Origin: an uncultured bacterium
GTDB taxonomy: Bacteria > Hydrothermota > UBA3072
Direction of reading: 5' to 3'
NCBI GenBank assembly: GCA_964525555.1
Contig: CAZGHN010000006.1
Span: forward strand, 74,805 to 138,804
DNA length: 64,000 nt
In this document: in pieces, positions 2,889 to 54,755 of the stretch
Position numbering within the stretch: the first letter of the stretch is position 1
Layout of the letters: every line of letters begins with the position of its first letter
Translations under genes and position numbers: made by a program
Notes under the pieces: model-generated
Seen by the model: only the letters and a program-made list of their open reading frames with translations
The model's database searches: none
What the model was told of the DNA's origin: nothing

Positions 2889-3956
2889 ATGTCAAACGTA
2901 GCAAAAGACATAATCATTCCAACTGAGCCTAATATCTTCCGAACAATATTCCTCTATGTCGGACAAGGAGACTCTACATTGCTAGTAGTCCCTGCGGGAG
3001 ACGGGTATAAGTATGTATTAATAGATTCAAATTATGACGAAGCCGCTGGTGGTATAGATATTATCAAACTCCTTGAGAACCTTTTCGAAGAAGAAGACGA
3101 AGGTTTAGATGTTTATATAAACACCCATCCCCATAAAGATCATCTCGGAAAGGTTAGGGAAATATATGAAAAGATAGGTATTGGCCAATTATGGCATTCA
3201 GGGCACAAGCCAGGCGGCGAGCATAATGAATCTTATAAAGACCTCGAATTTGTAATCAAAAAACTTGGGGAAGAAAATGTATTTCGCCTTCGAGGTAGCA
3301 GGGAAGAAAACAAATTAGATGAAGAAAAAATTATACTAGGCGACATAAATTACAACATTTTGGGCCCTGCCGATTATGTATCCGATGAAATAGAAGACGA
3401 AAAACCCAAAGAAAGATATACTAGGATTCATGAGCAATGCGCGGTAATTCGATTTAAATACGGAGAAGAAGAGAAACAGATACTCATTACTGGAGATGCA
3501 GATTACAAAGCATGGAAAGAACATATTACTGATTACCACGCGGATAGACTTCCTTCGACAGTGTTAAATGCTGCTCACCATGGTTCAAGGTCTTTTTTCT
3601 GGAAAGATGATAATATGGAGGAAGACCCTTACAAAAAACACTTAGAGAAAATCAAACCGACTTATATTACAGTTAGTGCCCCAAAAGAAAAGGAAAGTAG
3701 GCACGGCCACCCTCATAAAGAAGCCTTGAAGTTATACAAGGAAGAAGTAGGAACTGATGATAAGGTTTTTCATTTAGGCAAGAAAAGAGAATGCATAATT
3801 GTTGATATATACGCCGATGGTGATATAGACCTCTATCCTAATGATGAGTTGGTTAAGAGATATGGAAAAAAGAACGGAGACAATGGGGGTGACGACAAAA
3901 GAACAGGGATTCCGCCAACAGTCACAAAAATCGACAAGAAACCAATGGGTACTTGA
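2889..3956 (+). CDS. metallo-beta-lactamase-fold hydrolase (ComEC/Rec2-like MBL subfamily)
   Basis: GQGDS near N-terminus and HxHxDH motif THPHKDH (nt 3122-3142); later His/Asp ligands (HSGH, TGDADY, AAHHGS); strong RBS GGGAGGG; stop overlaps next start (TGATG). Confidence 0.75.
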   Translation: MSNVAKDIIIPTEPNIFRTIFLYVGQGDSTLLVVPAGDGYKYVLIDSNYDEAAGGIDIIKLLENLFEEEDEGLDVYINTHPHKDHLGKVREIYEKIGIGQLWHSGHKPGGEHNESYKDLEFVIKKLGEENVFRLRGSREENKLDEEKIILGDINYNILGPADYVSDEIEDEKPKERYTRIHEQCAVIRFKYGEEEKQILITGDADYKAWKEHITDYHADRLPSTVLNAAHHGSRSFFWKDDNMEEDPYKKHLEKIKPTYITVSAPKEKESRHGHPHKEALKLYKEEVGTDDKVFHLGKKRECIIVDIYADGDIDLYPNDELVKRYGKKNGDNGGDDKRTGIPPTVTKIDKKPMGT

Positions 3957-6301
3957 TGGAATGGTTCGCTCGTCACACTGGCTGGTTATATAGAGAAACA
4001 AGGGAACTTTCAAAAAATTCAATCTACAGTGAACAGCACCAATTTATAGACAAAACACTCATATCTAGCGGTAATATCTTAGTCCATAAGATAAAAACAG
4101 AATACTTTCCGATTTTAATCGTATATCCTGAAGCTACACCTTATGTCCCTCCTACGATATACCTTTTAGAAAATGAGATAAGTGAGGAAACAGCGAAAGA
4201 ATATTCGGAGCTTTCTCCTGAAGAGATAAGAAAAAGCGTAAAGGATAACATTGCATTTTTCTATAGGCGACATCAGAATGAAGATGGAAGCGTATGCTTT
4301 GTTGAAAGGGGTGACTTACATGATGAAAACCCAGAGAAATATCCTATTGAAAACATAATTAAAAGGTTGAGGGTATGGCTGTCTGGAAAGAAGATACCAA
4401 AGGACAGTCGTGAAGTTGAACTGTTTTATCATTTTCCAAACAGAACTTACGAAATTCAGTATCTCCTGCCGGATTTGTTCTTTGATAGGGAAATAGTAAA
4501 AGGAAAATTCTTTGCAGGACTGTCCAGCCTTATTACAGCAAAATACTTTACAGATGGTACCGAGAAAAGGACATTCATGGGAGTAATGATAGTCGGGGAA
4601 ACACAAGGAGGTGTGTCTCTTCCTCCCAAGTATTATGTAAAAAAACAGCTAATTCTATTTACTCACATTCCGGATATAGAGCATTTGATAACAAATAATG
4701 AGGAAAAAGCAAAGAAAATAGAAAATGGGGAATTAATAGAAGGACACTGGTGGAATATTACTAAAGAGCCTCTACCCTTTTCAAAATTAAATGAGCTTGC
4801 AAAATATATCGGTAACAATGATGAGGTAAAAGGATTTGATATGATGGTAGAAAGCTTAGAATCTGAATTGAAAGCATTTGAAGACTTCATTCACGTAGGA
4901 ATCAGATTTCCCGGAAGGTATAGAGAAAGAGATTGGCAAATGTTTAGACTCAACAAAGGAAGCCGTCCACCAATTATTGTATCCCAAAGGGAAGAATTGA
5001 AACAGCGGGTGCTCGATTACTCTATCGAAGCAGTGTATCAGGAGTATCTTACTGATGATTATTTCCACATGCGAAATAAGGGAAGAGCCGATAGAAGTAT
5101 CTTGAAGAATAAAACTATATCAATTATCGGTTGTGGTGCGCTTGGCTCTGAAACTACTGATGCACTGAGTAAAGCCGGAATAGGAAGATTTATTCTAGTA
5201 GATAGAGAAGTGATGAGGGCTCACAATACTGTTAGGCATAGTCTGGGTATAAATAAAGTAAGCATACCTAAGGCATGTGGTATGGCGGAACATTTGATTC
5301 TTCACAATCCTTTTATAAATATTGAATGGGAACATGAAGACATTCTGCTTGCCAAGATCGAAGATTATTTGCCCGAGGGTGCTATTGGGGTTTCAACCAT
5401 AGCTGATGACAATATAGAAGCTTACCTTAATGAAATAGCCATGAGTCAGGGAAGAACAATCTTCTATTGTAGGGCTTTGCGTGGTGGGAAAGCCGCGCGC
5501 ATATTCAGGGTCGTTCCGCAGATAGATGCATGCAAGACTTGTTTGGGGCTTTATCTCAGAGATAAAAATCCCTTTTTTATTAATATCCCAGAAGATGAGA
5601 GTCTTCCGGTTATAACAAATGAGTGCAACAACCCAGTAAGGCCTGCGAGTGCGGCCGATATGAAAATGATCTCTGGAGTTTTTGCGAGAATCATCATTGA
5701 TTTCCTACAGGGTAAGAGAACAGATAACAACCATTGGATTTGGACATCCGAATCTCTGGAAGGATTGAATATGGAAAATTCAACATATGGGTTTATAAAT
5801 GCAGAAAGCATAGCACCACACCCTCATTGTCTTGTTTGCCAGAAATTGGAAGACGCGAAAGTATATATTTTAAAAGATGTATTGGACTTCATGAAACGGG
5901 AAGCAACAAAATCTGGTAAAATCGAAACAGGGGGAGTTTTAATTGGACACATGTTGGCTAAAGGTGAGTATAAAATTTTAAAAGCAAGTAAGCCTGGCCC
6001 AAATGCTATAAGAACCGAGAATCGCTTTGAGAAAGATGAAAAATATTGTCAAAAAGTGCTTTTGGATGCTTTTGAAGAGCTCGATGATCAAGGCCTTTAT
6101 TTAGGAGAATGGCATTATCATCCTTTGGGTAGCAACGAACCAAGCGGAATAGATATCAATAGCCTAACAGAGATAGCAATTCAAGACAACTACCGGATAG
6201 ACAAACCAATAATGATAATATTATCACCGAAGTTGGAATATGCAATTACAATTCATAATAGGTTTGGCCGATGTGTTAAAATACCCTTGAAGATTGTATG
6301 A
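3956..6301 (+). CDS. E2(UBC-like)-E1(ThiF/MoeB-like)-JAB/MPN(JAMM) triple-domain ubiquitin-like conjugation enzyme
   Basis: N-terminal UBC-like signature YPEATPYVPP...RRHQNEDGSVCF (HPN-like motif plus Cys, nt 4271-4297); central Rossmann ISIIGCGALGSETTDALSKAGIGRFILVDREV (nt ~5123-5200); C-terminal JAMM motif E...HYHPLGSNEPSGID matching HxHx7Sx2D (nt 6113-6160). ATG 3956 used; ORF track begins at TTG 3953. Confidence 0.8.
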   Translation: MEWFARHTGWLYRETRELSKNSIYSEQHQFIDKTLISSGNILVHKIKTEYFPILIVYPEATPYVPPTIYLLENEISEETAKEYSELSPEEIRKSVKDNIAFFYRRHQNEDGSVCFVERGDLHDENPEKYPIENIIKRLRVWLSGKKIPKDSREVELFYHFPNRTYEIQYLLPDLFFDREIVKGKFFAGLSSLITAKYFTDGTEKRTFMGVMIVGETQGGVSLPPKYYVKKQLILFTHIPDIEHLITNNEEKAKKIENGELIEGHWWNITKEPLPFSKLNELAKYIGNNDEVKGFDMMVESLESELKAFEDFIHVGIRFPGRYRERDWQMFRLNKGSRPPIIVSQREELKQRVLDYSIEAVYQEYLTDDYFHMRNKGRADRSILKNKTISIIGCGALGSETTDALSKAGIGRFILVDREVMRAHNTVRHSLGINKVSIPKACGMAEHLILHNPFINIEWEHEDILLAKIEDYLPEGAIGVSTIADDNIEAYLNEIAMSQGRTIFYCRALRGGKAARIFRVVPQIDACKTCLGLYLRDKNPFFINIPEDESLPVITNECNNPVRPASAADMKMISGVFARIIIDFLQGKRTDNNHWIWTSESLEGLNMENSTYGFINAESIAPHPHCLVCQKLEDAKVYILKDVLDFMKREATKSGKIETGGVLIGHMLAKGEYKILKASKPGPNAIRTENRFEKDEKYCQKVLLDAFEELDDQGLYLGEWHYHPLGSNEPSGIDINSLTEIAIQDNYRIDKPIMIILSPKLEYAITIHNRFGRCVKIPLKIV

Positions 6302-11094: not shown

Positions 11095-11580
11095 ATGCCA
11101 ACTAAAGAAGAATCATTTGAAGCAGAATTTCAATCGATAAAAGATAATTTGGAAGACCTTTGCAGGGAGACAAAAGCGCTCTCGGTCTTGCTTATAGATA
11201 AGGCCGGGCAACTTATAACCTCTGCCGGGAATGTTTCTTCTATTGATATACCATCTTTTGCCACTCTATCGGCGGCTGATTTCGCAGCCACTTCAAATCT
11301 TGCAGATTTGATCGGAGAACATGATTTTTCAACTCTGTTTCACCAGGGAGTTCAAAAGAGTATTTATGTTTCATTAATTGCGGATAAGGTAATTCTTGCA
11401 GTTATTTTTACAAAGGAGACAACGCTGGGTTTGGTGCGTATAAAGGTTAAAAAAACGGCAGAAAAACTGGCAGGTTTGTTCGGAAAGATATTCGATGTTC
11501 TTGAGAGTGAGTATTCTGGAGCGGTAGATGATGATTTTATTAGTGAAGCGGAAACGGAACTTGATAGTCTTTTTGAATAA
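11095..11580 (+). CDS. mglB: Roadblock/LC7-domain protein (MglB-like GTPase-activating partner)
   Basis: Roadblock-like alpha/beta pattern; immediately upstream of MglA-like GTPase; start abuts porB stop. Confidence 0.6.
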   Translation: MPTKEESFEAEFQSIKDNLEDLCRETKALSVLLIDKAGQLITSAGNVSSIDIPSFATLSAADFAATSNLADLIGEHDFSTLFHQGVQKSIYVSLIADKVILAVIFTKETTLGLVRIKVKKTAEKLAGLFGKIFDVLESEYSGAVDDDFISEAETELDSLFE

Positions 11581-11592
11581 AATGGAGAAAAA

Positions 11593-12171
11593 ATGGCGCT
11601 TATAAATTATTCTTCGAAAGAGATAAATTGTAAAATAGTATATTACGGTCCTGGACTTGGCGGTAAAACTACGAATATCAAACACATATATTCAAAGGTA
11701 AATCCCGATCACAGGGGAAAATTGATGAGTCTCGATACAGAATTGGATAGAACACTTTTCTTTGATTTCTTACCTGTAGATTTGGGTACTGTTAAAGGTT
11801 TCTCAGTCCATTTTCATCTTTACACCGTTCCCGGTCAAGTTTATTATAATGCTTCCAGAAAACTTATATTGAAAGGTGTTGATGGGTTAATCTTTGTTGC
11901 CGATTCCCAGATAGAAAGATTTGAAGATAATATAGATTCGATGGAAAATCTTCACGACAATTTAAACGAATATCATAAGAAAGTTGAAGAGATACCTTTA
12001 GCAATTCAGTATAATAAAAGAGATTTGCCTAATATTGTTTCTCTTAATGAATTGGAAGACGCTTTGAATCCGCGAGGCGTTTTCTTCTGTGAAGGTGTTG
12101 CTGTAGAAGGTATTGGGGTTTTTGAACCTCTTAAAGAAGTTTCTAAAAAAGTCTTAAGAAAACTTAGATAG
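11593..12171 (+). CDS. mglA: MglA-like Ras-family small GTPase
   Basis: P-loop GPGLGGKTT, switch region and NKRD G4 motif. Confidence 0.7.
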   Translation: MALINYSSKEINCKIVYYGPGLGGKTTNIKHIYSKVNPDHRGKLMSLDTELDRTLFFDFLPVDLGTVKGFSVHFHLYTVPGQVYYNASRKLILKGVDGLIFVADSQIERFEDNIDSMENLHDNLNEYHKKVEEIPLAIQYNKRDLPNIVSLNELEDALNPRGVFFCEGVAVEGIGVFEPLKEVSKKVLRKLR

Positions 12172-12173
12172 CT

Positions 12174-12205
12174 TTAACGCGGCACAGCCGCGTTAATTTT
12201 GAATG
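12174..12205 (+). terminator. intrinsic terminator ending the por-mglBA operon
   Basis: Perfect 10-bp stem TTAACGCGGC-aca-GCCGCGTTAA followed by a T-rich run. Confidence 0.65.
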
Positions 12206-12235
12206 TTGAATTTTAAATTTTGAATTAGGAATTCC

Positions 12236-12583
12236 TTACAGTTTCTCTTTACTGGTTTTTACTATTGAGGTTAAAATTTTAATAATGTCATCAATTTCTT
12301 TAATATATATTTCAACATCACATTTTACAATTTGAGATCTTTGAATTAATCTTAGCCAATATTTAGTTTCACGAGCTTCTTTTGAAGAAATAGCCATTTT
12401 GTTTGTAAAGTCCTTTTTGCTCTGAGCCGCAGAAGCTTCTTCGATATTTGCTCCAATACTTGTTCCACTTCTTAGAACTTGCTTGGACAGAACGTATTCA
12501 TTATTTGCAATCATTTGTCTATACAGATCGATTATCTTTAATGCAAAATCAAAACTTTTATCTTTAATTAAATTCTCTTTCAT
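12236..12583 (-). CDS. four-helix-bundle protein (23S rRNA intervening-sequence protein family)
   Basis: Family-like motif GANIEEASAAQSKKDF...SSKEARETKYWLRLI. Confidence 0.65.
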   Translation of the reverse strand: MKENLIKDKSFDFALKIIDLYRQMIANNEYVLSKQVLRSGTSIGANIEEASAAQSKKDFTNKMAISSKEARETKYWLRLIQRSQIVKCDVEIYIKEIDDIIKILTSIVKTSKEKL

Positions 12584-12721
12584 TTTGTACCTTTTGTTAG
12601 TTCAGAATTCTAAATTAATAATTCATTACTTTTTTTAAGTTTTTCATTCAAAATTCAAAACTCAAAATTCAAAATTGTCATAGTTCATAATTATTATCAT
12701 TTTTGGATTTCTCTATATACT

Positions 12722-13888
12722 TTAGGTGGACTTAATTAATGGGATTATTTTGTTTTCCAGGATGGCGTCCCAGCTGAAATTATTGATTATTGTTCTTCTA
12801 TCTTGTACTATTTTATTATTCTCCAGAAATATATTGATAATTTTTGCTACTTTCTCAGGTTTTTCTTTGATATTAAAAAATATATGAGATTTGAAATGTT
12901 TTTCAATTTCTTTTAAAGGCGGAATGTCAGAAAGTGCAGCTGGCATTCGGAATAATGAAGCCTCAATGGCCGGTAATCCGAATCCTTCCATTTTGCTTGT
13001 AATAAGAAGAAAATCGCCCAGAAAATAGAAAGCTTGAATGTCTTTAATAGTACAATATTCGGAAAAAAGTATCAATTTAACCCCTTTTTTCTTTGCTCTT
13101 TCTTTAAGTTCGTTTCTATAAGATACGAAAGCAGGATTATGAGGATCGGGTGGGGCGGAGAGAAGTAGCAGCGGGGTTCCTTTTAATTTTGAAGTTATAT
13201 CGATTGCCAGCTCAAAATTTTTTCTTCTGGTAATCCTGGAAGGAAAAACGGCAACGGGATAGTAGGATAGTATTTTTAATTTTTTTGCAGTCTTTTTCAT
13301 GTCAGGTGGTAATATTACGTAAGGATCGATCCCATTGTGGATAACCTCTATTTGATTTTTCTTAATATTAAAGAAACTGGATAGTAATTGTTTTCTGTAA
13401 TTTGTTATTGTCACCCATTTTATTCCGGGAGTAGCATTGGATATGTATTTGAGTGGAGAATCCCCCGGAGAGGGTAAGTTGTATGTTGGATCGACATAAG
13501 AGAGATCATGAACCCAGGCTATAGTTTTTATTTCCTTTGACACCTGGATTAAAGCTGCGGTTGCTATTAGATTAAAATGCATTGTAAATATATTGTGGAC
13601 TATTAAAATATCGGAACCTTTTAATGCTTTAAGGATTTTCTTTTTTACTTTTTGGACTTCTTCGTTGAAATTTTCCGGTGTTTTACCTTTAAGTATTTTT
13701 CTGTTCATTTCTTTATAATAAGAAGATTTTAGTTCGGGAATAAATTTATCGGGTTTTCCGTCTCCAGCTATTATATTTACCTTAAAGTTTTTTTCCTTTA
13801 ATAATTTTGAGTGAATATCGACGGTTAGTTCTACCCCCCCGATTACCGGCAAGGCAGAATAATGGAGAATGGATACTACTTTCCCCAT
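12722..13888 (-). CDS. glycosyltransferase family 4 (GT-B fold)
   Basis: EGFGLPAIEA motif characteristic of GT4. Confidence 0.75.
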   Translation of the reverse strand: MGKVVSILHYSALPVIGGVELTVDIHSKLLKEKNFKVNIIAGDGKPDKFIPELKSSYYKEMNRKILKGKTPENFNEEVQKVKKKILKALKGSDILIVHNIFTMHFNLIATAALIQVSKEIKTIAWVHDLSYVDPTYNLPSPGDSPLKYISNATPGIKWVTITNYRKQLLSSFFNIKKNQIEVIHNGIDPYVILPPDMKKTAKKLKILSYYPVAVFPSRITRRKNFELAIDITSKLKGTPLLLLSAPPDPHNPAFVSYRNELKERAKKKGVKLILFSEYCTIKDIQAFYFLGDFLLITSKMEGFGLPAIEASLFRMPAALSDIPPLKEIEKHFKSHIFFNIKEKPEKVAKIINIFLENNKIVQDRRTIINNFSWDAILENKIIPLIKST

Positions 13889-15105
13889 TTTTCAAGAAGA
13901 TAGGATTTGTTCTCTTCGAAAGTAAGTGCAGCCTCTTCAATAAGATTTTCGAATTCGTCATTTTTCATTTTTATTGACGATTCGTAAAGAGAAGCCACTC
14001 TTAAATTATACAAAGGAAGCAGTGTGCTTATCAGTTTTGCGTGATGCCTTTTACAATGATGGAAAGCCGAGGCGAAATCATAAACAATTTTTGCCCAATT
14101 TTCATGATTAAGTAGAGAGTAATCTTTTTCTTTAGAAATTGTTTTTAAGAGTCTAAAAGAACGTTGGTTGAGGATATCATTCCATAATGAATGGAAATTT
14201 TTCCATCCTGATTTAAATGATTCGGCAAGGGAATTGAGGTCTATATCAAATTCTTCGGGTTCTAGTCCTATTTCTTCTCCTAGTATATCTACCTCTTCGG
14301 AGCCTTTTATTTTTTTCCATAAATCTTCAAAATCTCCCATCAGTTCAAAGGTTGTGATGACGACCTGAAGAAACATCGGTCCCAGCTGTTTTGATGGATC
14401 TTTTGCTTCGTGAAGTTTGGCTCCAAGTCTGGTTTGCCCCAATTTAAATCCGTTTTTGACAGCTGTTGTGGTTATCCAAGTATCGATACCGAATTTTGCT
14501 ACCTCCGTATCCCATCGTTTATCTTGCAATAAAGAGTTTACAAGATTAGCTGAAAATCCAAAATCCCCTCCTATAGGCTGTCTGACTCTTTTTCCCCATA
14601 TTGCTCGTATCAACATATAAGCAATATTGTTTGTAATTGTAGCATCGTATTTATATCTTTTATAATATGGAGCTATATAATCATAATCATCATTTATTAT
14701 TGGGCTGATGAGATTTTTCATCCATTTTGGTCCAATGGAGCGTAGGTCTGAATCTACCATAAGTGTTGCTTTGGCGTCAAGAAATTCCGCAGCTTCAAGG
14801 ATACCCCTTACAGCCGAACCCTTTCCGGGGTAACCTCTATATATGCTTACCGCTTTTTCAATGTAAGGAGGTAGTTCCGTGTTTTTTGCTACCTCTCTGG
14901 TGTCATCGACAGAACCACCGTCCGTAACCAGTATCAAACTCTTGAAGTCCTTCCAGTATTGGACTAATCCTTCTCCTATTTGTTTCATTACGAAGTCTAT
15001 AGTATCATCAACATTGTAAGAAGGAATACCGACTAATATATCAACTGATTTTATATCTTCGAGTCTTTTTCTTAAGTCGTCTCGTATTGCCGTTATGAGT
15101 TTCAT
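13876..15105 (-). CDS. GT-A fold glycosyltransferase (GT2/GT81-like)
   Basis: Motifs GIPSYNVDDTI, VTDGGSVDDT and DSD (DxD). Confidence 0.55.
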   Translation of the reverse strand: MKLITAIRDDLRKRLEDIKSVDILVGIPSYNVDDTIDFVMKQIGEGLVQYWKDFKSLILVTDGGSVDDTREVAKNTELPPYIEKAVSIYRGYPGKGSAVRGILEAAEFLDAKATLMVDSDLRSIGPKWMKNLISPIINDDYDYIAPYYKRYKYDATITNNIAYMLIRAIWGKRVRQPIGGDFGFSANLVNSLLQDKRWDTEVAKFGIDTWITTTAVKNGFKLGQTRLGAKLHEAKDPSKQLGPMFLQVVITTFELMGDFEDLWKKIKGSEEVDILGEEIGLEPEEFDIDLNSLAESFKSGWKNFHSLWNDILNQRSFRLLKTISKEKDYSLLNHENWAKIVYDFASAFHHCKRHHAKLISTLLPLYNLRVASLYESSIKMKNDEFENLIEEAALTFEENKSYLLEKWGK

Positions 15106-15106
15106 T

Positions 15107-16321
15107 CTACCTCCCGTTGAATTTATCGACTATATCAGGTATTCTCGAATTTAATAAATCGGGCATTGCAGAATCTATTCTTCCCCATGTAGGTATTAAA
15201 TGAGAACCCAGAGGGTGTTTGTTAAACTCTGATGCTGCTATGTCAAATGCCGTAGTGAACTTTTCAATTGCGATTATCTCTCTGTTTCTATCATACTTGA
15301 GACCGTTTATTAAAGCTAAATTCTTGTATTTTTCTACAAATTCCATGGCGTAATCATAATATGTTATTTTAAGAGTTCGTATCGTCTCAGAGGAGAAAAT
15401 TATTCCATCTTGAGAGAGTACTCTGAAAAACGTTCGTGCAATATCTATTGCCATTCTCATTATTCCCGATGTGATATTATCGGCATCGAATTCTTGATGT
15501 TTGTGGTCATATCTGTCTATTAAATCGACCTGACAAATGCTGGATAGATCCAGATTAGTGTAAATTTCACGCAATAGACCTATCTCTAGGCCCCAGTCTG
15601 AGGAAAAACGAACTCTTCGTGTTAGTTCCGTTGTCATTGCTACTTCTCCGGAAAGAGGATAGCGGAATGATTCGAGATAATCGAAAAACTCCCTGTTGCC
15701 GAAGATTTTCTTGAGTGCTTTTAAGAGTGGGGAAAAGAAAAGACGAACTGCTCTTCCGTGTAATACATCTGCAAATCTTGCGTAATAACCTTTTGCAAAA
15801 TCGTAATTGAGACGTTTGGAAAGAACGGGATAGGTAAGGCGCGCTAGAATATCTCTTGAGTATGAACGTATGTCGCAATCATGCAGGGTTACCATATAAA
15901 CTTCGCCTTTAGCCAGAATATATCCCATTGCCATCCAAACCCCTCTTCCTTTCCCTCTTTTACCGGGGTCAAGATCATCTTTCTTAAGCCTTTTGTAAAT
16001 ATCTTGAATTTGCGGAGAATCATTCCAGATAATGGTTGTTTTTGTCGGTATTTTAGAGAAAAATTTTCTTGCATGGTTAAACTGGGCCTTGTTTGCCTTA
16101 TCGAGAGAAACTACTACTTCGTGTATATAATCAGCTTTTTTTAATTGTTCCACAATTCCGGGAAGGCCTTTACCTTCGAGTTCCATGTAAAGAGAAGGCA
16201 GTAGAAGGGCAAATTTTCTTTCTTTAGAAATTTCTCGTACGCTGTTTTCTATTTTTTCAAGAGAATAGCTGGGTAATTTATGTAATGTTGTAATAATGCC
16301 ATTTTGAAAAAAATCAGACAT
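15107..16321 (-). CDS. glycosyltransferase, putative mannosyl-/glucosyl-3-phosphoglycerate synthase-like
   Basis: Overlaps by 8 nt with the MPGP-like HAD phosphatase gene; assignment is by context, no decisive motif. Confidence 0.4.
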   Translation of the reverse strand: MSDFFQNGIITTLHKLPSYSLEKIENSVREISKERKFALLLPSLYMELEGKGLPGIVEQLKKADYIHEVVVSLDKANKAQFNHARKFFSKIPTKTTIIWNDSPQIQDIYKRLKKDDLDPGKRGKGRGVWMAMGYILAKGEVYMVTLHDCDIRSYSRDILARLTYPVLSKRLNYDFAKGYYARFADVLHGRAVRLFFSPLLKALKKIFGNREFFDYLESFRYPLSGEVAMTTELTRRVRFSSDWGLEIGLLREIYTNLDLSSICQVDLIDRYDHKHQEFDADNITSGIMRMAIDIARTFFRVLSQDGIIFSSETIRTLKITYYDYAMEFVEKYKNLALINGLKYDRNREIIAIEKFTTAFDIAASEFNKHPLGSHLIPTWGRIDSAMPDLLNSRIPDIVDKFNGR

Positions 16322-17036
16322 ATTTCTCCTCCAGTACTTTTTCTACTACTTGTTTCCATACAAGCGGGCCAAAATCTTCGAAGCTTTTATATTTAGAGTT
16401 TTTTATATTGTTTTTACTATTCAATAATATCGGATAATCGCATTCATCCAGCATGGAATAATCGTTTGGAGAGTCTCCGATGCCGACTGAATATCCTTTC
16501 TTTTTTTTCTTAATTACCTTAACCGCTTTGCCTTTTGATGTTCCTCTGTATAATTGATAAAATTTCCCTCCCCAGTGAAGTGTGTAACCAAGTGATTTCA
16601 GCTCTTCGATGAATTCTTGATTTTCAGCGTTGAGAAATCGGAAAGGTTCTGAAAAATTTCTGTTTTTGGCGAGCGGTATCAAATGTTCGGGCAAACCGGT
16701 AAGTTCATGAATTTTTTCTTCAATCATTTCAGAAAATATCTCTATTCTTATATTATGTTCTTTTGCAATATGAAGTAAATCATTTTTTATCCCTGTAGAC
16801 TTTGTCCCTAATTCGTTTTTCTTGCCATCGATAACTACAAGTCCTCCGTTTTCGGCAGCATAGGGTCCTGTGAAGTTCATTTCTTTTAGGAAATAATCTA
16901 TTTCTGAGGATGTTTTGCTTGAGATAATAGATATTATGATTCCTTTATCAATTAAAGTATGTATAAAATCACGAATAGGAATCGCTGAAAATGTAGAATC
17001 CAGAAGGCAGTTGTCAAGATCTGTGAAAATTATCAT
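16314..17036 (-). CDS. HAD-IIB phosphatase, mannosyl-3-phosphoglycerate phosphatase (YedP/MpgP) family
   Basis: FTDLDNCLLD, SSKTSSEI, GIGDSPNDYSMLDECDYPILL align with YedP/MpgP motifs. Confidence 0.75.
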   Translation of the reverse strand: MIIFTDLDNCLLDSTFSAIPIRDFIHTLIDKGIIISIISSKTSSEIDYFLKEMNFTGPYAAENGGLVVIDGKKNELGTKSTGIKNDLLHIAKEHNIRIEIFSEMIEEKIHELTGLPEHLIPLAKNRNFSEPFRFLNAENQEFIEELKSLGYTLHWGGKFYQLYRGTSKGKAVKVIKKKKKGYSVGIGDSPNDYSMLDECDYPILLNSKNNIKNSKYKSFEDFGPLVWKQVVEKVLEEKYV

Positions 17037-18322
17037 TCAAGTACTCGTTTGAATATTTTTTCTTCATTTTTCAGATAACTTTTTGGATCGAACAGATTTT
17101 CCAGTTCCTCTTTGCTAATATATTTTTTAGCTCGTTTATCATTTTCTATTTTTTTCTTGAAATTACCACCCTTTTGCCAGACTTCCATTGCATTTTCCTG
17201 CACGATGTTGTAGGCTTCGTCTCTTTTAACCCCTTTATCAAGTAGGGTTATAAGCACTCTTTGAGAAAAAACGAGGCCGTTTGTTAACCAGATGTTTTTT
17301 TCTATGTTGTCTTTGTATATATTTATATCCTTAACTACGAAAGAAAGCTTCTTAAGCATATAAACTGTAAGCATTATGGCATCGGGAAAGTATATCCTTT
17401 CCGTGGAAGAGTGTGAAATGTCTCGCTCATTCCACAAAATTATATTTTCTAAAGCGGTTATTAAGTATGAACGAAGCAGGCGACTCATTCCGGATAGGCG
17501 TTCGCAAAGTATAGGGTTTCTCTTATGCGGCATTGCAGATGAGCCTTTCTGTCCTTTTTTGAAAGGTTCTTCTAATTCTCTTATTTCTGTCCGCTGCATA
17601 TGACGTATTTCATGTGCTATGTGTTCTATTGTTGTTCCTATGGTAGACAATGCAAATATGTATTCTGCGTACCTGTCTCGCGGAACTATTTGTGTTGAAA
17701 TAGGTTCCGGTTTTAAGTTTAGTTTTTTAAGAGCAAGTGCTTCTACTTCTGGATCAAGATGAGCAAAATTACCCATTGCGCCGGAAATTTTTCCGTATTC
17801 AGTTTCTTTCGAAGCTGTTTCAAAACGCTTATTTGCTCTTTTCATTTCCGAATACCAGGATAGAAACTTGAGTCCAAGGGATGTAGGTTCTCCGTGGATA
17901 CCATGGGTTCTCCCTACTATTGGTATTCCCTTACATTCGAGGGCTTTCTCTTTTAATAACTGAAGTATGTTTTTTATCTCCTTCTTTATAATTTTAGAAC
18001 ACTCTTTAACCTGAAGAGCGAAAGAGGTATCTACTATATCGGACGATGTTAGACCCTGGTGAAAAAAGCGTGTTGAATCTCCGCCTTTTTCTCCGACTGC
18101 CGTGATGAAAGATACGACATCATGTCTGGTCTCCTTTTCGATTTCTTTTATCCTTTCAGTAGAAACTTCGATTCCTTCTAATGATTTAGCTGTTCCGGAA
18201 GGTATTTGTCCCAGTTCTTCACGGGCGGAAAGAACGGCAAGTTCGACTTCAAACCACTTTTTGAATTTATTGTCATCCGACCAGATTTTGTCGATTTCTT
18301 CAATCGTATATCTTGGAATCAT
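17033..18322 (-). CDS. purB: adenylosuccinate lyase
   Basis: Fumarate-lyase signature GSSAMPHKRNP; PurB-like length. Confidence 0.85.
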   Translation of the reverse strand: MIPRYTIEEIDKIWSDDNKFKKWFEVELAVLSAREELGQIPSGTAKSLEGIEVSTERIKEIEKETRHDVVSFITAVGEKGGDSTRFFHQGLTSSDIVDTSFALQVKECSKIIKKEIKNILQLLKEKALECKGIPIVGRTHGIHGEPTSLGLKFLSWYSEMKRANKRFETASKETEYGKISGAMGNFAHLDPEVEALALKKLNLKPEPISTQIVPRDRYAEYIFALSTIGTTIEHIAHEIRHMQRTEIRELEEPFKKGQKGSSAMPHKRNPILCERLSGMSRLLRSYLITALENIILWNERDISHSSTERIYFPDAIMLTVYMLKKLSFVVKDINIYKDNIEKNIWLTNGLVFSQRVLITLLDKGVKRDEAYNIVQENAMEVWQKGGNFKKKIENDKRAKKYISKEELENLFDPKSYLKNEEKIFKRVLE

Positions 18323-18449
18323 TAAGCCCTCCTTAATATTTATGCTGTTTTTTCAGCTTTTAGATTATAAAAGTATATTTTGTAATGTCAAGTCCGAAAG
18401 AAGTTTGGGCCTTTGGTGTTTGCTCTCGCATTGTGATTGTAATAACCCC

Positions 18450-30592: not shown

Positions 30593-31271
30593 GATTATAA
30601 TATCTCTAAAAGACGTAAGTAAAGGTTTTCTTTCCGGAGCCGAAGAAATATCTGTTCTAAAAAGTGTAAATTTGGAAGTATGTAGAGGAGATTTTATAAC
30701 AATAAGCGGGCCATCGGGTTCAGGTAAGAGTACGCTTCTTCATATTTTGGGAGGACTTTTGCATCCTGATGAAGGAAATGTTTTACTTGAAGGTAAATCT
30801 TTGTATGATTATAAGGATAGAACACTTGCAAATATAAGAAATGAGAAGATAGGATTTATTTTTCAGTTTCATCACCTTCTCCTCGATTTTACAGTTGTTG
30901 AAAATTTGGCTATACCTCTTTTAATAAAAGGGGTAACTTTTAAGGAAGCTTACAAACAAGCAGAAAATTTACTTCTTCGCGTTGATCTTTCTTCCAGGAT
31001 GTATGCGAAACCTAGGACGCTATCAGGTGGAGAGAGGCAGCGAGTAGCGGTTCTTCGAGCTATTATAAACAATCCTTTGCTTTTACTTGCGGATGAGCCT
31101 ACTGGTGATTTGGATATGGCACATGCGGATGTGGTTTTAGATATGTTGACTCAAATCCATAAGGATAAAGGCATGACAGTTATACTTGTTAGTCATAATC
31201 AAAGGGTTGCAAAAATGGGACAAAAAACTTATAATTTACTTAAAGGGAAATTGAAAAAGAATGAAGTGTGA
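30585..31271 (+). CDS. lolD: lipoprotein-releasing ABC transporter ATP-binding protein
   Basis: Walker A GPSGSGKST, ABC signature LSGGERQRV, Walker B LLLADEPTGDLD; ATG 30585 overlaps permease stop. Confidence 0.8.
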   Translation: MSEIIISLKDVSKGFLSGAEEISVLKSVNLEVCRGDFITISGPSGSGKSTLLHILGGLLHPDEGNVLLEGKSLYDYKDRTLANIRNEKIGFIFQFHHLLLDFTVVENLAIPLLIKGVTFKEAYKQAENLLLRVDLSSRMYAKPRTLSGGERQRVAVLRAIINNPLLLLADEPTGDLDMAHADVVLDMLTQIHKDKGMTVILVSHNQRVAKMGQKTYNLLKGKLKKNEV

Positions 31272-31728
31272 TTTATGCGGAGCTAATGTAGCAAAATATA
31301 AATATTACGAAGTGGACTCTGATAAAGTTCGGGAAATAAACATTTGTGAACAGTGTGCCAGGGAAAAGGGAGTTGACGTTAAAAATAAAGATGATGTTAC
31401 GGAGATTAAAGACAAGGTGTGTCCAACTTGCGGATTGACTTTCTTTGAATATAAAAATTCTGGAAAGTTGGGATGTGTCGATTGCTATAAAGTTTTTTAT
31501 GATCAGGTTAAAACTTATCTGAAAGAGTTTCAATTGGGTGTTAATCACAAAGGTAAAGAACCAGTCAGAAATACAAAAGTCCTTTCTGTTAAAAAAGAAA
31601 TTTTGGAAATGAAGAAACAATTAGAAGATTATGTTGAAAGCGAGAAATTCGAAGAAGCGGTAAAGTTAAGAGATCAGATTGAAGAAAGAAAAGAAGAGCT
31701 TAAAACTATAAGGGGCAAAAATGATTGA
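31261..31728 (+). CDS. mcsA: McsA-like zinc-finger/UVR-domain protein
   Basis: Paired CxxC motifs (CDLCG...CEQC; CPTCG...CVDC) and C-terminal UVR-like helix; upstream of mcsB. Confidence 0.65.
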   Translation: MKCDLCGANVAKYKYYEVDSDKVREINICEQCAREKGVDVKNKDDVTEIKDKVCPTCGLTFFEYKNSGKLGCVDCYKVFYDQVKTYLKEFQLGVNHKGKEPVRNTKVLSVKKEILEMKKQLEDYVESEKFEEAVKLRDQIEERKEELKTIRGKND

Positions 31729-32761
31729 TTCTCTTGTTACTCGTTTCCCTGCCTGGCTTAAAAGAATTGGGCCTTATTCCGAGATGATACTGTTTTCCAA
31801 AATTTCTTTATATCGTAATCTTGGAGGATATAAGTTTAACAGTAAGACAACCGAAAAGGAAAAGGAAGAAATACTAAATTTCCTCTTTGAAGGTATATCT
31901 ACCCTTTCTTATTTTGAGAATTTTATTACTTTGAAAGATTTGAAAGAAAATGAAAAGGATTTTTTTATAGAAAGGAATTTTATAAAAAGAGAGGAGTCTA
32001 ATAAATTCGGGCAACTTGGTTTGGTTATAAATGATTCTCAAAACAGTGTACTTGTATTGAATTCAGACGAGCATCTTGAAATTTCTTCGGTGTTTTCTGA
32101 ATTGTCAATCAAAGAAGCTTATAATCAATGTGATGGTTTAGACGATGAACTTAACGAAGAATTTAGTTTTGCTTATGATAATGAATTAGGTTTTTTGACT
32201 TCATCAACCGATAAAGTCGGGACAGGCATGAAAATTTCCACCGTAGTTCATCTGCCGGCGCTTGTCATTACTGGTAAATTTGTGGATGTTATTGACGATC
32301 TTGAAGATTCTCTTTTTTCAATAGAGGGAGTTTTTAACATAGGTGAAAACGTGGAAGGGAGTTATTTTAAGATAAGCAACAAATTTACTCTGGGTGTCTC
32401 AGAAGAGGAAATACTAAAATTGTTTGAGAACAAGATTAAAGCTATAATTAAAGATGAAGTTGATAGCAGAGAGTATTTAACTCAGAAAGTCGGATATGAG
32501 ACTGAAGACAAAATTTGGAGATCTTATGGTATTCTTAAGAATGCAAGAATTTTATCGGTTACCGATTTTCTTAATTTGACATCGGCTGTAAGGCTCGGGA
32601 CTAGTTTAGGCATTATAAGAGATATTAGTATTGTGAATTTGAACGAATGGCTTTTTCAGGGCCTTCCCGGACACTTAAGGGTTCTAAATGAAGATGTTAG
32701 CAATGAAAAAGAAGAGAATATTCTTAGAGCCAAACTTATAAGAAATTATTTGGGAGGATAA
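31721..32761 (+). CDS. mcsB: protein-arginine kinase (ATP:guanido phosphotransferase)
   Basis: Phosphagen-kinase motifs DEHLEI and VGTGMKISTVVHLP. Confidence 0.75.
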   Translation: MIDSLVTRFPAWLKRIGPYSEMILFSKISLYRNLGGYKFNSKTTEKEKEEILNFLFEGISTLSYFENFITLKDLKENEKDFFIERNFIKREESNKFGQLGLVINDSQNSVLVLNSDEHLEISSVFSELSIKEAYNQCDGLDDELNEEFSFAYDNELGFLTSSTDKVGTGMKISTVVHLPALVITGKFVDVIDDLEDSLFSIEGVFNIGENVEGSYFKISNKFTLGVSEEEILKLFENKIKAIIKDEVDSREYLTQKVGYETEDKIWRSYGILKNARILSVTDFLNLTSAVRLGTSLGIIRDISIVNLNEWLFQGLPGHLRVLNEDVSNEKEENILRAKLIRNYLGG

Positions 32762-32765
32762 GAAT

Positions 32766-53151: not shown

Positions 53152-53576
53152 AGGGGTCAACTTTATTGTATCCAAATTTAAAAATCACTTTGCTGTGATC
53201 AATATAAAATAATTTGCTGCGATTAATAATCCCCTCCTTAATTTAAGATTCTTTATAATTAAAAAATATGTATTTGAAAATAAATGTCAATAGTGGTATG
53301 CAGGGAATATATCGAACGAAGAATTATAAAAAATAGAAGAGGAATCACCCAGAAATGTTTTTAATATTAATTTAAACAGGAGGTAAAAAAAGATTAATTT
53401 AACCCCACCCCTTGACACTTTTCAAAGAAGGTCTGACCCTGTTGCCCCCACTGTTGCCCCCAGAGAAAAGAACGCACGTTAATCTTGACCCTAGATACAT
53501 AGATACACTCATTATACTCCAGCATCATAATCTTAAACCCTTGATTTTTATTTGTAAACCAATATTATTAAAAGAC

Positions 53577-54755
53577 ATGAAAGAAGTAAATTTAGGAAAG
53601 AGAATAAAAAAACTGTTCCTTTTTCATATAGTATTTCTTGGTGTAATAGTATTTATTTCGTGTTCACGAGAACAAGGAAACAATGCAACAGTGAAAGTTG
53701 AAATTCCAATCGATTCTAAATCTAATATATATGAACTAATTTTAAAAGAAAAAATTGATTTTAGTCATTTAATCAAAAAAGCTGACTCATTATTTGATGT
53801 TGGAGAATATGTTAAAGCCGAATCTCTATATAATAAAGCGCACAATCTTTCGCTGGAATCCGGTAATAAAAAATTAATCGGAGTTACTTTAATTGGTATC
53901 GGAGCGTCTAAAGATAGACAATTTGAATATGAAGAAGCCATTGAGATATTTAACAACACAATGGAATATAAAAGTTTAATGGATAATCCTAGTTTATATC
54001 TATTGTTTTTTAACAAAGGTGTTTCTTTACAAAAAACAGATAAGCTGGAAGGCGCATTAAATTCATATAAGAATGCAATTCTAATAGATTCTAACTTAAC
54101 GGAAGCTTACATTAATCTGGCAAAAATTTACTATAGTGAAAATCAAAAAGATAAAGCATTTAAGGAACTTTCTAAAGCGATTGATTTAGGTTCTAAATAT
54201 TATGATGCTTACTTAGGAAGAGGTATTATCTATCTTAAGAAAGAAGAATATCAGAAAGCTTTAAAAGACCTCAATTTCGCTATAAAGCTGAATCCAAAAT
54301 CTGTTAAAGCCTATAAAGCACGTGGAATGATTTATGGCGATGAAGGAAAGATTGAAAAAGCTTTATCTGACTTTAATAAAGCTATAGAATTGGAACCCAA
54401 AAATTCCGACCTTTATTCTTTAAAAGCGTTTATTTTTTACGAAAAGGAAAGTTACAATAAAGCTCTCCGAAACTTAAATAAAGCAATTGAATTAAATTCT
54501 AATTCTCACAAAGATTACCACCTTAGAGGTATTATTTATGGGAAGAAAGGTAAATATGATCAAGCAATAGATGAATTTACCAAAGCAATCAATTTAGAAC
54601 CCCAAAGTTATGAATCATATTATTTCAGAGGTTTGTCTTACGCTAATAAAGGTAATTATAAAGAAGCAATAACTGATTACAAAAAAACATTAGATTTGAA
54701 TCCAAGATTTGATGAAGCACAGGAAAGGCTAAGAGAATTAAAACAATTTAAGTAA
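53577..54755 (+). CDS. TPR-repeat lipoprotein
   Basis: Start at ATG 53577 (signal/lipobox VFISCS) instead of track TTG 53412; at least eight TPR-like 34-aa repeats. Confidence 0.65.
   Translation: MKEVNLGKRIKKLFLFHIVFLGVIVFISCSREQGNNATVKVEIPIDSKSNIYELILKEKIDFSHLIKKADSLFDVGEYVKAESLYNKAHNLSLESGNKKLIGVTLIGIGASKDRQFEYEEAIEIFNNTMEYKSLMDNPSLYLLFFNKGVSLQKTDKLEGALNSYKNAILIDSNLTEAYINLAKIYYSENQKDKAFKELSKAIDLGSKYYDAYLGRGIIYLKKEEYQKALKDLNFAIKLNPKSVKAYKARGMIYGDEGKIEKALSDFNKAIELEPKNSDLYSLKAFIFYEKESYNKALRNLNKAIELNSNSHKDYHLRGIIYGKKGKYDQAIDEFTKAINLEPQSYESYYFRGLSYANKGNYKEAITDYKKTLDLNPRFDEAQERLRELKQFK

What the first reader, a model, noticed from the sequence alone, without database searches (positions are those of the whole stretch)
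12722..17036. Glycosyl-glycerate-type cluster (MPGP-like HAD phosphatase plus three glycosyltransferases)
A YedP/MpgP-family phosphatase overlaps a candidate synthase and is followed by GT-A and GT4 enzymes, all co-oriented. This suggests synthesis of a mannosyl-/glucosyl-glycerate compatible solute or a further-glycosylated derivative.
Basis: partly seen in the sequence, partly recalled or inferred. Interest (0 to 1): 0.4.

Follow-up and report, generated by a model that had tools for sequence, protein, structure and literature searches.

The report
Glucosylglycerate operon with extra glycosyltransferase
This is a five-gene operon from an uncultured WOR-3 bacterium that almost certainly makes the stress-protecting sugar acid glucosylglycerate by two routes. 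Its last gene belongs to an uncharacterised enzyme family that probably adds a second sugar.

Summary
Four co-oriented minus-strand genes lie at 12722..17036, overlapping or abutting. They continue an operon that starts at purB (18322) behind a perfect sigma-70 consensus promoter.

- **240 aa:** an MPGP/GpgP-type HAD-IIB phosphatase.
- **404 aa:** a Methanococcoides/Persephonella-type glucosyl-3-phosphoglycerate synthase (GpgS). It is 48% identical to a Persephonella GpgS and is not GT55.
- **409 aa:** a homologue of the Persephonella single-step glucosylglycerate synthase (Ggs), 52% identical.
- **388 aa:** a GT4 enzyme.

The same purB–gpgP–gpgS–ggs–GT4 order is kept in WOR-3 relatives down to 67% GpgS identity.

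The new element is the GT4. It belongs to a small family of about 187 clusters at 50% identity. In other phyla this family sits beside GT81-type GpgS. It also occurs with a mycobacterial-type histidine-phosphatase GpgP or a glycerate kinase, and is sometimes fused to GpgS or to a Ggs-like domain. It is a distant sister (22–28% identity) of mannosylglucosylglycerate-synthase-like GT4s.

Best reading: GpgS/GpgP and Ggs both make glucosylglycerate, and the GT4 extends it, or its phosphate, to a diglycosyl-glycerate. The sugar added and the exact acceptor are not determined. This is a new variant of a known pathway, of moderate interest.

The parts
18364..18391 (-). Sigma-70-type promoter-like site (TTGACA, 16 nt, TATAAT; 12 of 12 matches), 42 nt upstream of the purB start
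   Evidence: sequence read, with an AAGGAGG ribosome-binding site before the ATG at 18322
17033..18322 (-). purB (adenylosuccinate lyase), first gene of the transcription unit; its stop overlaps the phosphatase start by 4 nt
   Evidence: TIGR00928 519 bits against a cut-off of 326; linkage to the cluster conserved in relatives L088-L091 and L157
16314..17036 (-). gpgP-like HAD-IIB phosphatase (240 aa) of the mannosyl/glucosyl-3-phosphoglycerate phosphatase family, with a shortened cap region
   Evidence: TIGR01486 155 bits (cut-off 164.75) and TIGR02461 131 bits. 30% identical to the Persephonella operon phosphatase. Motifs D6-x-D8, S40-K-T, K168 and G187-D-S-P-N-D192 are present; two deletions of about 9 and 7 aa relative to four other GpgP-type proteins.
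15107..16321 (-). gpgS, glucosyl-3-phosphoglycerate synthase of the Methanococcoides/Persephonella type (404 aa)
   Evidence: NF040724 337 bits, E 1.5e-100, residues 3-391 against profile positions 2-389 of 402. 48% identical without gaps to Persephonella sp. IF05-L8 GpgS, which itself scores 348 bits. JGI names members of its 90% cluster GpgS. G123-K-G, D148-C-D150 and H273/H275 align with M. tuberculosis GpgS motifs.
13876..15105 (-). ggs-like GT-A glycosyltransferase (409 aa), homologue of the single-step glucosylglycerate synthase
   Evidence: Pfam MGS_GT 36.3 bits, above the gathering score of 27. 52% identical over its full length to the Persephonella 415-aa GT that lies between glycerate kinase and gpgS. 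JGI names some homologues 'glucosylglycerate synthase'. G94-K-G, D118-S-D120 and H232 align with GT81 GpgS structures.
12722..13888 (-). GT4 retaining GT-B glycosyltransferase (388 aa) of an uncharacterised family linked to GPG/GG synthases; proposed glycosyl-glucosylglycerate synthase
   Evidence: Pfam Glyco_transf_4 plus Glycos_transf_1; E301-x7-E309 motif; AF2 model pLDDT 93.8. The N-terminal half hits only MggS NF041101 among NCBIfam. Gene neighbourhoods and fusions.

Best explanation
The five genes purB–gpgP–gpgS–ggs–GT4 form one transcription unit in a WOR-3 (Caldifarciminota) bacterium.

- **GpgS** condenses an NDP-glucose with 3-phosphoglycerate to give glucosyl-3-phosphoglycerate (GPG).
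- **The HAD phosphatase** removes the phosphate to give glucosylglycerate (GG).
- **Ggs** makes GG in one step from NDP-glucose and glycerate. This is the same dual-route arrangement described for Persephonella marina.
- **The GT4**, translationally coupled to ggs, then transfers a second hexose onto GG. The product is a diglycosyl-glycerate of the mannosylglucosylglycerate or glucosylglucosylglycerate kind, which would serve as a negatively charged compatible solute.

Shown here: the gene identities by homology, the intact catalytic motifs, the conservation of the operon, and the cross-phylum linkage and fusion of the GT4 family with GPG/GG synthases. Inferred: the activities themselves, the acceptor (GG rather than GPG), the donor sugar and linkage, and the physiological role.
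For: **Gene identities.** Searches support the assignments. The curated cut-off of NF040724 is narrow: a Persephonella GpgS orthologue scores 348 bits and the window protein 337, against a cut-off of 700.

**Comparison operons.** The Persephonella operon L002 reads HAD – glycerate 2-kinase – Ggs – GpgS. Calditrichota has only HAD–GpgS.

**One transcription unit.** There is a 12/12 consensus promoter upstream of purB. No terminator-like site lies on the minus strand between 18322 and 12722. The genes overlap by 4, 8 and 13 nt.

**Conservation.** The same five genes in the same order occur in relatives with 67-75% GpgS identity and 56-83% GT4 identity.

**Linkage of the GT4 family to GG genes.**
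- A family-specific motif scan of metagenome contigs returned 120 loci, of which 97 carry a strong family member.
- Of the 29 with at least 1.5 kb on both sides, 19 have an adjacent same-strand GT-A partner.
- NCBIfam identifies these partners as GT81 GpgS at 373-386 bits, above the cut-off of 262.
- L161 reads GpgS – His_Phos_1 – GT4. L200 reads GT4' – GT4 – Usp-GpgS – His_Phos_1. The histidine phosphatase is the mycobacterial GpgP type (PMC3240985).
- L003 has a short Ggs plus the GT4, next to a convergent GpgS plus HAD.
- L006 has glycerate kinase next to the GT4.
- L009 has an MGH1-like GH63 nearby.
- Single polypeptides join GT4 with GpgS (P0487), GT4 with GpgS and a sucrose-phosphorylase-like GH13 domain (P0396), and GT4 with a Ggs-like domain (P0467).

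**Acceptor hint.** The N-terminal, acceptor-side half of the window GT4 hits only MggS NF041101 among 18,950 NCBIfam models, at E 4e-8.

**Precedent.** The GgS plus MggS non-phosphorylating route in Petrotoga is described in PMC3736172.
Against: - No activity has been measured for any protein of this cluster or for any member of this GT4 family.
- The GT4 scores only 68 bits on the MggS equivalog model, against a cut-off of 640. It is 22-23% identical to MggS-like GT4s found next to family members in other loci. It is therefore not an MggS orthologue, and the sugar and acceptor may differ.
- The phosphatase falls just under the TIGR01486 cut-off and has a shortened cap. That could mean a different substrate, for example a phosphorylated disaccharide.
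- In most other lineages the GT4 partners with GpgS, which makes the phosphorylated intermediate. This is equally compatible with GPG as the acceptor.
- The Foldseek neighbours are generic retaining GT-B enzymes with TM about 0.4.
Confidence: 0.62

Rival explanations
1. Phosphorylated route. The GT4 works like MggA. It glycosylates glucosyl-3-phosphoglycerate, and the cap-shortened HAD phosphatase dephosphorylates the resulting diglycosyl-3-phosphoglycerate. Ggs separately supplies plain GG. The end product is still a diglycosyl-glycerate.
For: - In most lineages the GT4 family sits next to GpgS rather than Ggs, sometimes with a phosphatase in the same run (L161, L200, L154).
- The window phosphatase is the most divergent of the GpgP-type proteins compared. 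It scores 155 bits against 204-264 and has two cap-region deletions.
- Petrotoga has consecutive gpgS and mggA genes, and MggA accepts only GPG (PMC3736172).
Against: - In WOR-3, L003, L135 and L170 the GT4 is directly coupled to the Ggs-type gene, whose product is unphosphorylated GG.
- The only NCBIfam hit of the acceptor-side half of the GT4 is MggS, which uses GG.
- R. baltica MggA is 530 aa, against 388 aa here (PMC3736172).
- No MggA sequence was available for a direct comparison.
Confidence: 0.25
2. GG is the end product. The GT4 is an unrelated envelope or polysaccharide glycosyltransferase that merely shares the operon.
For: JGI annotates most homologues generically as 'glycosyltransferase involved in cell wall biosynthesis'. 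GT4 is a very large and functionally diverse family.
Against: - Adjacency to three non-orthologous GG/GPG synthase types recurs across phyla: 19 of 29 well-flanked loci.
- Natural GT4–GpgS and GT4–Ggs-like fusion proteins exist.
- The structural neighbours are dominated by enzymes with small soluble acceptors: GlgM, BshA, MshA and sucrose-phosphate synthase.
Confidence: 0.06
3. GG serves as the primer of an intracellular oligo- or polysaccharide, as in mycobacterial methylglucose lipopolysaccharide, and the GT4 is the first elongating enzyme.
For: - GG is the primer of MGLP in mycobacteria (PMC3240985, PMC5381378).
- Some family members lie next to GlgB branching enzyme (L012, L018) or next to further GT4 genes (L102, L187, L200).
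- The top structural hit is GlgM.
Against: The WOR-3 operon has no methyltransferase, acyltransferase, branching enzyme or second GT4. Nothing else related was found in the 64-kb window.
Confidence: 0.05
4. The cluster makes mannosylglycerate rather than glucosylglycerate.
For: The phosphatase family is named for mannosyl-3-phosphoglycerate. Pfam MGS_GT (the mannosylglycerate synthase GT domain) hits both GT-A proteins. MpgP and GpgP enzymes are partly interchangeable (PMC3240985).
Against: - No GT55 MpgS-type match was found at E <= 0.01.
- The 404-aa protein aligns end to end with the GpgS model and with Persephonella GpgS.
- The 409-aa protein's closest named relatives are glucosylglycerate synthases.
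Confidence: 0.02

Closest known systems
Persephonella marina glucosylglycerate operon (gpgP, ggs, gpgS; two-step and single-step routes)
   Same: It has the same three enzyme types: an MPGP-type HAD phosphatase, a Methanococcoides-type GpgS (48% identity) and Ggs (52% identity), all co-oriented in one operon-like run. The dual pathway is described in PMC3736172, and in Fernandes 2007 and Costa 2007, which are cited there but not held in the library.
   Different: The congeneric Persephonella locus read here (L002) carries a glycerate 2-kinase and no GT4. The gene order differs. The WOR-3 operon starts with purB, and its phosphatase is about 30 aa shorter.
Petrotoga mobilis mannosylglucosylglycerate pathways (GpgS–MggA–MggB and GgS–MggS)
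   Same: The logic is the same: GG or GPG is made first and is then extended by a GT4 Leloir glycosyltransferase. Both a phosphorylating and a non-phosphorylating supply of the glucosyl-glycerate core exist (PMC3736172). MggS is the best NCBIfam match of the window GT4.
   Different: - The window GT4 scores 68 bits against the 640-bit MggS cut-off.
- It is 22-28% identical to the MggS-like GT4' proteins, which themselves score 220-226 bits and co-occur with this family in some loci.
- There is only one GT4 here.
- All the genes are in one operon, whereas the Petrotoga genes are dispersed.
- The donor sugar is unknown.
Mycobacterial GG / MGLP initiation (GT81 GpgS Rv1208, histidine-phosphatase GpgP Rv2419c)
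   Same: Relatives of the window GT4 lie in runs with exactly these two protein types (L161, L200). This shows that the GT4 accompanies GG synthesis whichever enzyme types perform it.
   Different: The window uses the Methanococcoides-type GpgS and a HAD phosphatase. The mycobacterial second glucosylation is attributed to a putative DggS, not to this GT4 family (PMC3240985, PMC5381378).

Membership tests
GpgS, Methanococcoides/Persephonella type (NCBIfam NF040724) | Full-length match to the family model at the curated cut-off | tested here: inconclusive
   337 bits, E 1.5e-100, covering 389 of 402 profile positions, against a cut-off of 700. A Persephonella GpgS orthologue scores 348 and a Calditrichota one 380, so the cut-off captures only methanogen sequences.
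GpgS, Methanococcoides/Persephonella type (NCBIfam NF040724) | GT-A catalytic motifs (GKG loop, DxD metal site, metal-binding His) and adjacency to a GpgP phosphatase gene | tested here: met
   G123-K-G, D148-C-D150 and H273/H275 align with M. tuberculosis GpgS motifs (PMC2581804). The gene overlaps the HAD phosphatase gene by 8 nt.
GpgS, Methanococcoides/Persephonella type (NCBIfam NF040724) | Formation of glucosyl-3-phosphoglycerate from NDP-glucose and 3-phosphoglycerate | not testable with these tools
   This needs an enzyme assay.
GT55 mannosyl-3-phosphoglycerate synthase (MpgS) | Match to an MpgS family model | tested here: not met
   No MpgS model appears for the 404- or 409-aa proteins at E <= 0.01 in Pfam or NCBIfam.
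GT81 (actinobacterial GpgS, NCBIfam NF010496 / PRK13915) | Score at or above the curated cut-off of 262 bits | tested here: not met
   The 404-aa protein scores 63 bits and the 409-aa protein 59 bits, so the homology is only distant. PDB GpgS and MpgS chains match at E about 3e-6.
Glucosylglycerate synthase (Ggs, single-step) | Orthology to the Persephonella Ggs | tested here: met
   52% identity over 100% of the query to the Persephonella sp. 415-aa GT (P0186, P0206). This is the only extra GT in the Persephonella gpgP–gpgS operon. Some homologues are named glucosylglycerate synthase by JGI. The characterised P. marina sequence itself was not on hand.
Glucosylglycerate synthase (Ggs, single-step) | GG formed directly from NDP-glucose and D-glycerate | not testable with these tools
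   This needs an enzyme assay.
HAD-IIB MPGP/GpgP phosphatase family (TIGR01486) | Score at or above the curated cut-off of 164.75 bits | tested here: inconclusive
   155 bits, just under the cut-off. Other GpgP-type proteins score 204-264. The shortfall coincides with two cap-region deletions.
HAD-IIB MPGP/GpgP phosphatase family (TIGR01486) | The four HAD catalytic motifs (DxD, S/T, K, GDxxND) | tested here: met
   D6-L-D8, S40-K-T42, K168 and G187-D-S-P-N-D192.
MggS, mannosylglucosylglycerate synthase (NCBIfam NF041101) | Score at or above the curated cut-off of 640 bits | tested here: not met
   68 bits. Relatives of the window GT4 score 32-85, whereas a different GT4' in the same loci scores 220-226. 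The two families are 22-28% identical.
MggA, mannosylglucosyl-3-phosphoglycerate synthase | Sequence similarity to Petrotoga or R. baltica MggA; GPG as sole acceptor | not testable with these tools
   No MggA sequence or model could be obtained. The only datum is size: R. baltica MggA is 530 aa (PMC3736172), against 388 aa here.
CAZy GT4 retaining GT-B glycosyltransferases | Glyco_transf_4 plus Glycos_transf_1 domains, E-x7-E motif and a two-Rossmann GT-B fold | tested here: met
   Pfam hits at 40.7 and 57.1 bits, above the gathering scores. E301-x7-E309. AF2 model pLDDT 93.8, with Foldseek top hits GlgM, BshA, MshA and sucrose-phosphate synthase.

The most novel reading that the evidence does not exclude
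The 388-aa GT4 may define a previously unrecognised enzyme family: a 'glycosyl-glucosylglycerate synthase' distinct from MggA and MggS. It is the constant partner of GG/GPG synthesis in WOR-3, Chloroflexota, Verrucomicrobiota, Desulfobacterota and other lineages, and it occurs even in dinoflagellates as a fusion protein. It could be the missing enzyme for alpha(1-6)glucosyl-alpha(1-2)glucosylglycerate, a solute found in Persephonella marina with no known synthase. Alternatively it could make a new diglycosyl-glycerate solute.
Probability: 0.3. Interest if true: 0.55.

Novelty: new variant of a known kind. Interest (0 to 1): 0.4.

Why it matters
Glucosylglycerate and its glycosylated derivatives are rare, negatively charged compatible solutes. 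They are tied to salt, heat and nitrogen stress, and in mycobacteria to an essential polysaccharide primer.

This locus gives a first concrete prediction of osmolyte chemistry for the uncultured WOR-3 phylum. It also points to a small, uncharacterised GT4 family, sister to MggS, that travels with GG synthesis whichever non-homologous synthase or phosphatase performs it.

Characterising one member would assign a function to about 190 sequence clusters. It could also identify the unknown enzyme behind diglucosylglycerate-type solutes.

Tried and rejected
- **Primary papers.** The J Bacteriol papers (Fernandes 2007, Fernandes 2010) are not held. Pathway facts were taken from PMC3736172, PMC3240985, PMC5381378 and PMC2581804. 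What I recall of the 2010 abstract (MggS having some homology to MggA) is my own knowledge and was not verified.
- **Genome-contig scan.** Only about 11 of the 80 loci were true family members. A hand-made pattern from the family-specific N-terminal motif HYSxxP[VI]IGGVE on metagenome contigs worked far better.
- **MggA and MggS sequences.** I could not obtain Petrotoga or R. baltica sequences, so no direct comparison with MggA was made.
- **Foldseek.** The GT4 model returned only generic retaining GT-B enzymes, with low TM scores because of domain opening. This does not discriminate the acceptor.
- **RNA elements.** There are no Rfam families and no tRNAs in the window, so there is no riboswitch ahead of purB.
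- **Rest of the window.** It holds housekeeping and envelope genes, with no sugar-nucleotide, glycerate kinase, GH63 or GH13_18 genes.
- **Literature.** Searches for WOR-3 compatible solutes and for GT4 plus glucosylglycerate clusters found nothing relevant.
- **Rejected readings.** I rejected GT55/MpgS and a mannosylglycerate product. I also rejected the GT4 as a hitch-hiking envelope enzyme.

Full report
**1. What is in the sequence**

Between 12722 and 18322, five ORFs on the minus strand follow one another with overlapping or abutting ends:
- purB, 18322..17033
- a 240-aa ORF, 17036..16314
- a 404-aa ORF, 16321..15107
- a 409-aa ORF, 15105..13876
- a 388-aa ORF, 13888..12722

The junctions are a 4-nt overlap, an 8-nt overlap, a 1-nt gap and a 13-nt overlap. 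A perfect sigma-70 consensus (TTGACA, 16 nt, TATAAT) lies at 18391..18364, just upstream of purB. No terminator-like site lies on the minus strand inside the run.

**2. Organism**

An identical copy of the 409-aa protein lies on a 163-kb NCBI contig. Homologues at 90% identity or more are named 'candidate division WOR-3 bacterium'. WOR-3 is now the phylum Caldifarciminota. The window is a chromosomal stretch with purB, purM, tsaD, parAB, topA, clpC and pyruvate:ferredoxin oxidoreductase genes.

**3. The phosphatase**

The 240-aa protein matches the mannosyl-3-phosphoglycerate phosphatase family TIGR01486 at 155 bits, against a cut-off of 164.75. It also matches several MPGP equivalogs. It is 30% identical to the phosphatase of the Persephonella GG operon.

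All HAD motifs are present: D6-x-D8, S40-K-T, K168 and G187-D-S-P-N-D192. It is the most divergent of the GpgP-type proteins compared, which score 204-264 bits. It has two deletions, of about 9 and 7 residues, in the cap region. Relatives in WOR-3 are likewise 237-240 aa.

**4. The 404-aa protein is a GpgS**

It aligns end to end with NCBIfam NF040724, the Methanococcoides-type glucosyl-3-phosphoglycerate synthase, at 337 bits and E 1.5e-100. It is 48% identical, without a single gap, to the 404-aa protein of Persephonella sp. IF05-L8.

The curated cut-off of 700 is not an argument against this assignment. The Persephonella and Calditrichota orthologues score 348 and 380. JGI names members of its 90% cluster GpgS.

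It is only distantly related to GT81 (63 bits on PRK13915; PDB GpgS and MpgS at E about 3e-6). It has no GT55 match. The GKG loop, the D148-C-D150 metal site and a His in the loop that carries His258 of the M. tuberculosis enzyme are all present (PMC2581804).

**5. The 409-aa protein is a Ggs homologue**

It passes the Pfam MGS_GT gathering score. It aligns with GT81 GpgS structures across the D118-S-D120 site. It is 52% identical over its full length to Persephonella glycosyltransferases of 415 aa.

In Persephonella sp. IF05-L8 that gene lies in the run HAD phosphatase – glycerate 2-kinase – 415-aa GT – GpgS. This corresponds to the published P. marina operon, in which the extra glycosyltransferase is the single-step glucosylglycerate synthase (cited in PMC3736172 and PMC3240985). 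The WOR-3 operon thus encodes both known routes to GG. By contrast, a Calditrichota genome has only HAD–GpgS.

**6. The GT4: basic properties**

The 388-aa protein has both GT4 domains and the E301-x7-E309 motif. It folds with high confidence into a GT-B structure (pLDDT 93.8). Its nearest solved structures are retaining enzymes with small soluble acceptors: GlgM, BshA, MshA, sucrose-phosphate synthase and glycogen synthase. These hits are generic.

Close homologues, at more than 55% identity, occur only in WOR-3 and Stahlbacteria-type bins. Identity then drops to 30-40%. The whole family comprises about 187 clusters at 50% identity (E <= 1e-30) among 1.84 billion representatives.

**7. What the GT4 family travels with**

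This is the main new result.

- **Individual distant members.**
  - One lies next to a short Ggs-type gene, with a convergent GpgS plus HAD pair (L003).
  - One lies next to a glycerate kinase (L006).
  - One lies next to an MGH1-like GH63 and an OtsA/OtsB-like pair (L009).
- **Metagenome scan.**
  - A scan for the family-specific N-terminal motif returned 120 loci, of which 97 carry a strong family member.
  - Of the 29 with at least 1.5 kb on both sides, 19 have an adjacent same-strand GT-A gene.
  - NCBIfam identifies that partner as a bona fide GT81 GpgS, at 373-386 bits against a cut-off of 262.
  - The partner often carries an N-terminal Usp domain or an MPGP phosphatase domain.
- **Phosphatase swap.** L161 reads GpgS – histidine phosphatase – GT4. 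L200 reads GT4' – GT4 – Usp-GpgS – histidine phosphatase. The histidine phosphatase is the mycobacterial GpgP type (PMC3240985).
- **Fusion proteins.**
  - P0487 joins GT4 and GpgS and was seen on two contigs.
  - P0396 joins GT4, GpgS and a sucrose-phosphorylase-like GH13 domain, and sits among general-stress genes.
  - P0467 joins a membrane domain, GT4 and a Ggs-like domain.

The GT4 is thus the constant element, while the synthase and the phosphatase are exchanged for non-orthologous analogues. This is strong evidence that its substrate is GG or GPG.

**8. Relation to MggS and MggA**

The best NCBIfam match of the window GT4 is MggS (NF041101), but only at 68 bits against a cut-off of 640. 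Its N-terminal, acceptor-side half matches that model and no other.

In L200, L187 and L013 a second GT4 (GT4') next to the family member scores 220-226 bits over the full length of the MggS model. The two families are 22-28% identical to each other, against 31-47% within the window's family. The window GT4 is therefore a distant sister of the MggS-like enzymes, not an orthologue.

R. baltica MggA is 530 aa (PMC3736172). No MggA sequence could be obtained for a direct test.

**9. Mechanism proposed**

GpgS and the HAD phosphatase make GG via GPG. Ggs makes GG directly. The GT4, translationally coupled to ggs, adds a second hexose to give a diglycosyl-glycerate. This follows the logic of the Petrotoga GgS/MggS route (PMC3736172).

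The main rival keeps the same product but routes it through GPG, with dephosphorylation last, as with MggA and MggB. The GpgS-adjacent contexts and the remodelled phosphatase cap speak for that rival. The Ggs–GT4 coupling and the MggS-like acceptor half speak for GG as acceptor.

The donor sugar and linkage are open. The known candidates are mannosyl-(1-2)-GG, and the glucosyl-(1-6)-GG found in P. marina (Lamosa 2013, cited in PMC5381378), for which I know of no assigned synthase.

**10. Verdict**

The GG part is a new member of a known pathway in an uncultured phylum. Adding a GT4 of an uncharacterised, GG-linked family makes the whole a new variant of a known kind. Interest is moderate. It would rise if the GT4 family proves to make a solute whose synthase is unknown.

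Noticed in passing
window 12195-12676: A 115-aa four-helix-bundle protein of the '23S rRNA intervening sequence protein' family (12583..12236, minus strand; TIGR02436 103 bits) is bracketed by 31-nt inverted repeats at 12195-12225 and 12646-12676 (90% complementary, TTTTGAA-rich). The cassette is absent at this spot in relatives, where the GT4 and the GTPase gene abut. It looks like a small inserted element.
   Followed up: partly
window 17033-18322 and 18364-18391: purB is translationally coupled to the glucosylglycerate genes behind a perfect consensus promoter, and this linkage is conserved in all WOR-3 relatives examined (L088-L091, L157). I have no functional explanation for a purine gene heading an osmolyte operon.
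   Followed up: partly
L214 6001-10152 (P0396); P0487; P0467; P0452: Natural fusion proteins of the GT4 family:
- P0396: GT4, GT81 GpgS and a sucrose-phosphorylase-like GH13 domain (1383 aa), among CsbD/BON/YflT stress genes.
- P0487: GT4 and GpgS (750 aa).
- P0467: membrane domain, GT4 and a Ggs-like domain (1257 aa).
- P0452: membrane domain and GT4 (881 aa), from the dinoflagellate Polykrikos kofoidii, which suggests the pathway also exists in eukaryotes.
   Followed up: partly
L187 3425-5254, L213 4317-6113, L172 5281-7200, L008 11233-13062 and others: GT81-type GpgS proteins of about 600-650 aa with an N-terminal universal-stress-protein (Usp) domain are common next to the GT4 family in Chloroflexota-like metagenome contigs. 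L154 instead has an MPGP-phosphatase–GpgS fusion followed by a second free MPGP phosphatase.
   Followed up: partly
L200 4045-5370, L187 906-2078, L013 5999-7336: A second GT4 that scores 220-226 bits on the MggS model lies directly upstream of the window-type GT4 in several loci. This implies that two successive glycosylations of the GG core occur in those organisms.
   Followed up: partly
window 11095-12171: A Roadblock/LC7 protein and a small Ras/Arf-like GTPase form an MglB/MglA-like pair. The pair lies convergent to the cluster and is conserved in that position in WOR-3 relatives.
   Followed up: no
window 2889-6301: A metallo-beta-lactamase-fold protein is followed by a 782-aa ThiF (E1-like) plus JAB deubiquitinase-like fusion, upstream of thiamine genes (Thi4, TMP synthase).
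   Followed up: no
window 55249-60846 (minus strand): A 1865-aa RHS-repeat protein. The ORFs on either side of it (53412-54755 TPR protein; 61254-61826 and 62201-62683) gave no match that points to a toxin or immunity function, and the last two have no Pfam match at all. It may be a polymorphic toxin locus.
   Followed up: no
window 31261-35216: A UVR-motif protein, an ATP:guanido phosphotransferase (McsB-like arginine kinase) and ClpC lie in a row. This is a Firmicutes-style protein-arginine-phosphorylation quality-control module in a WOR-3 genome.
   Followed up: no
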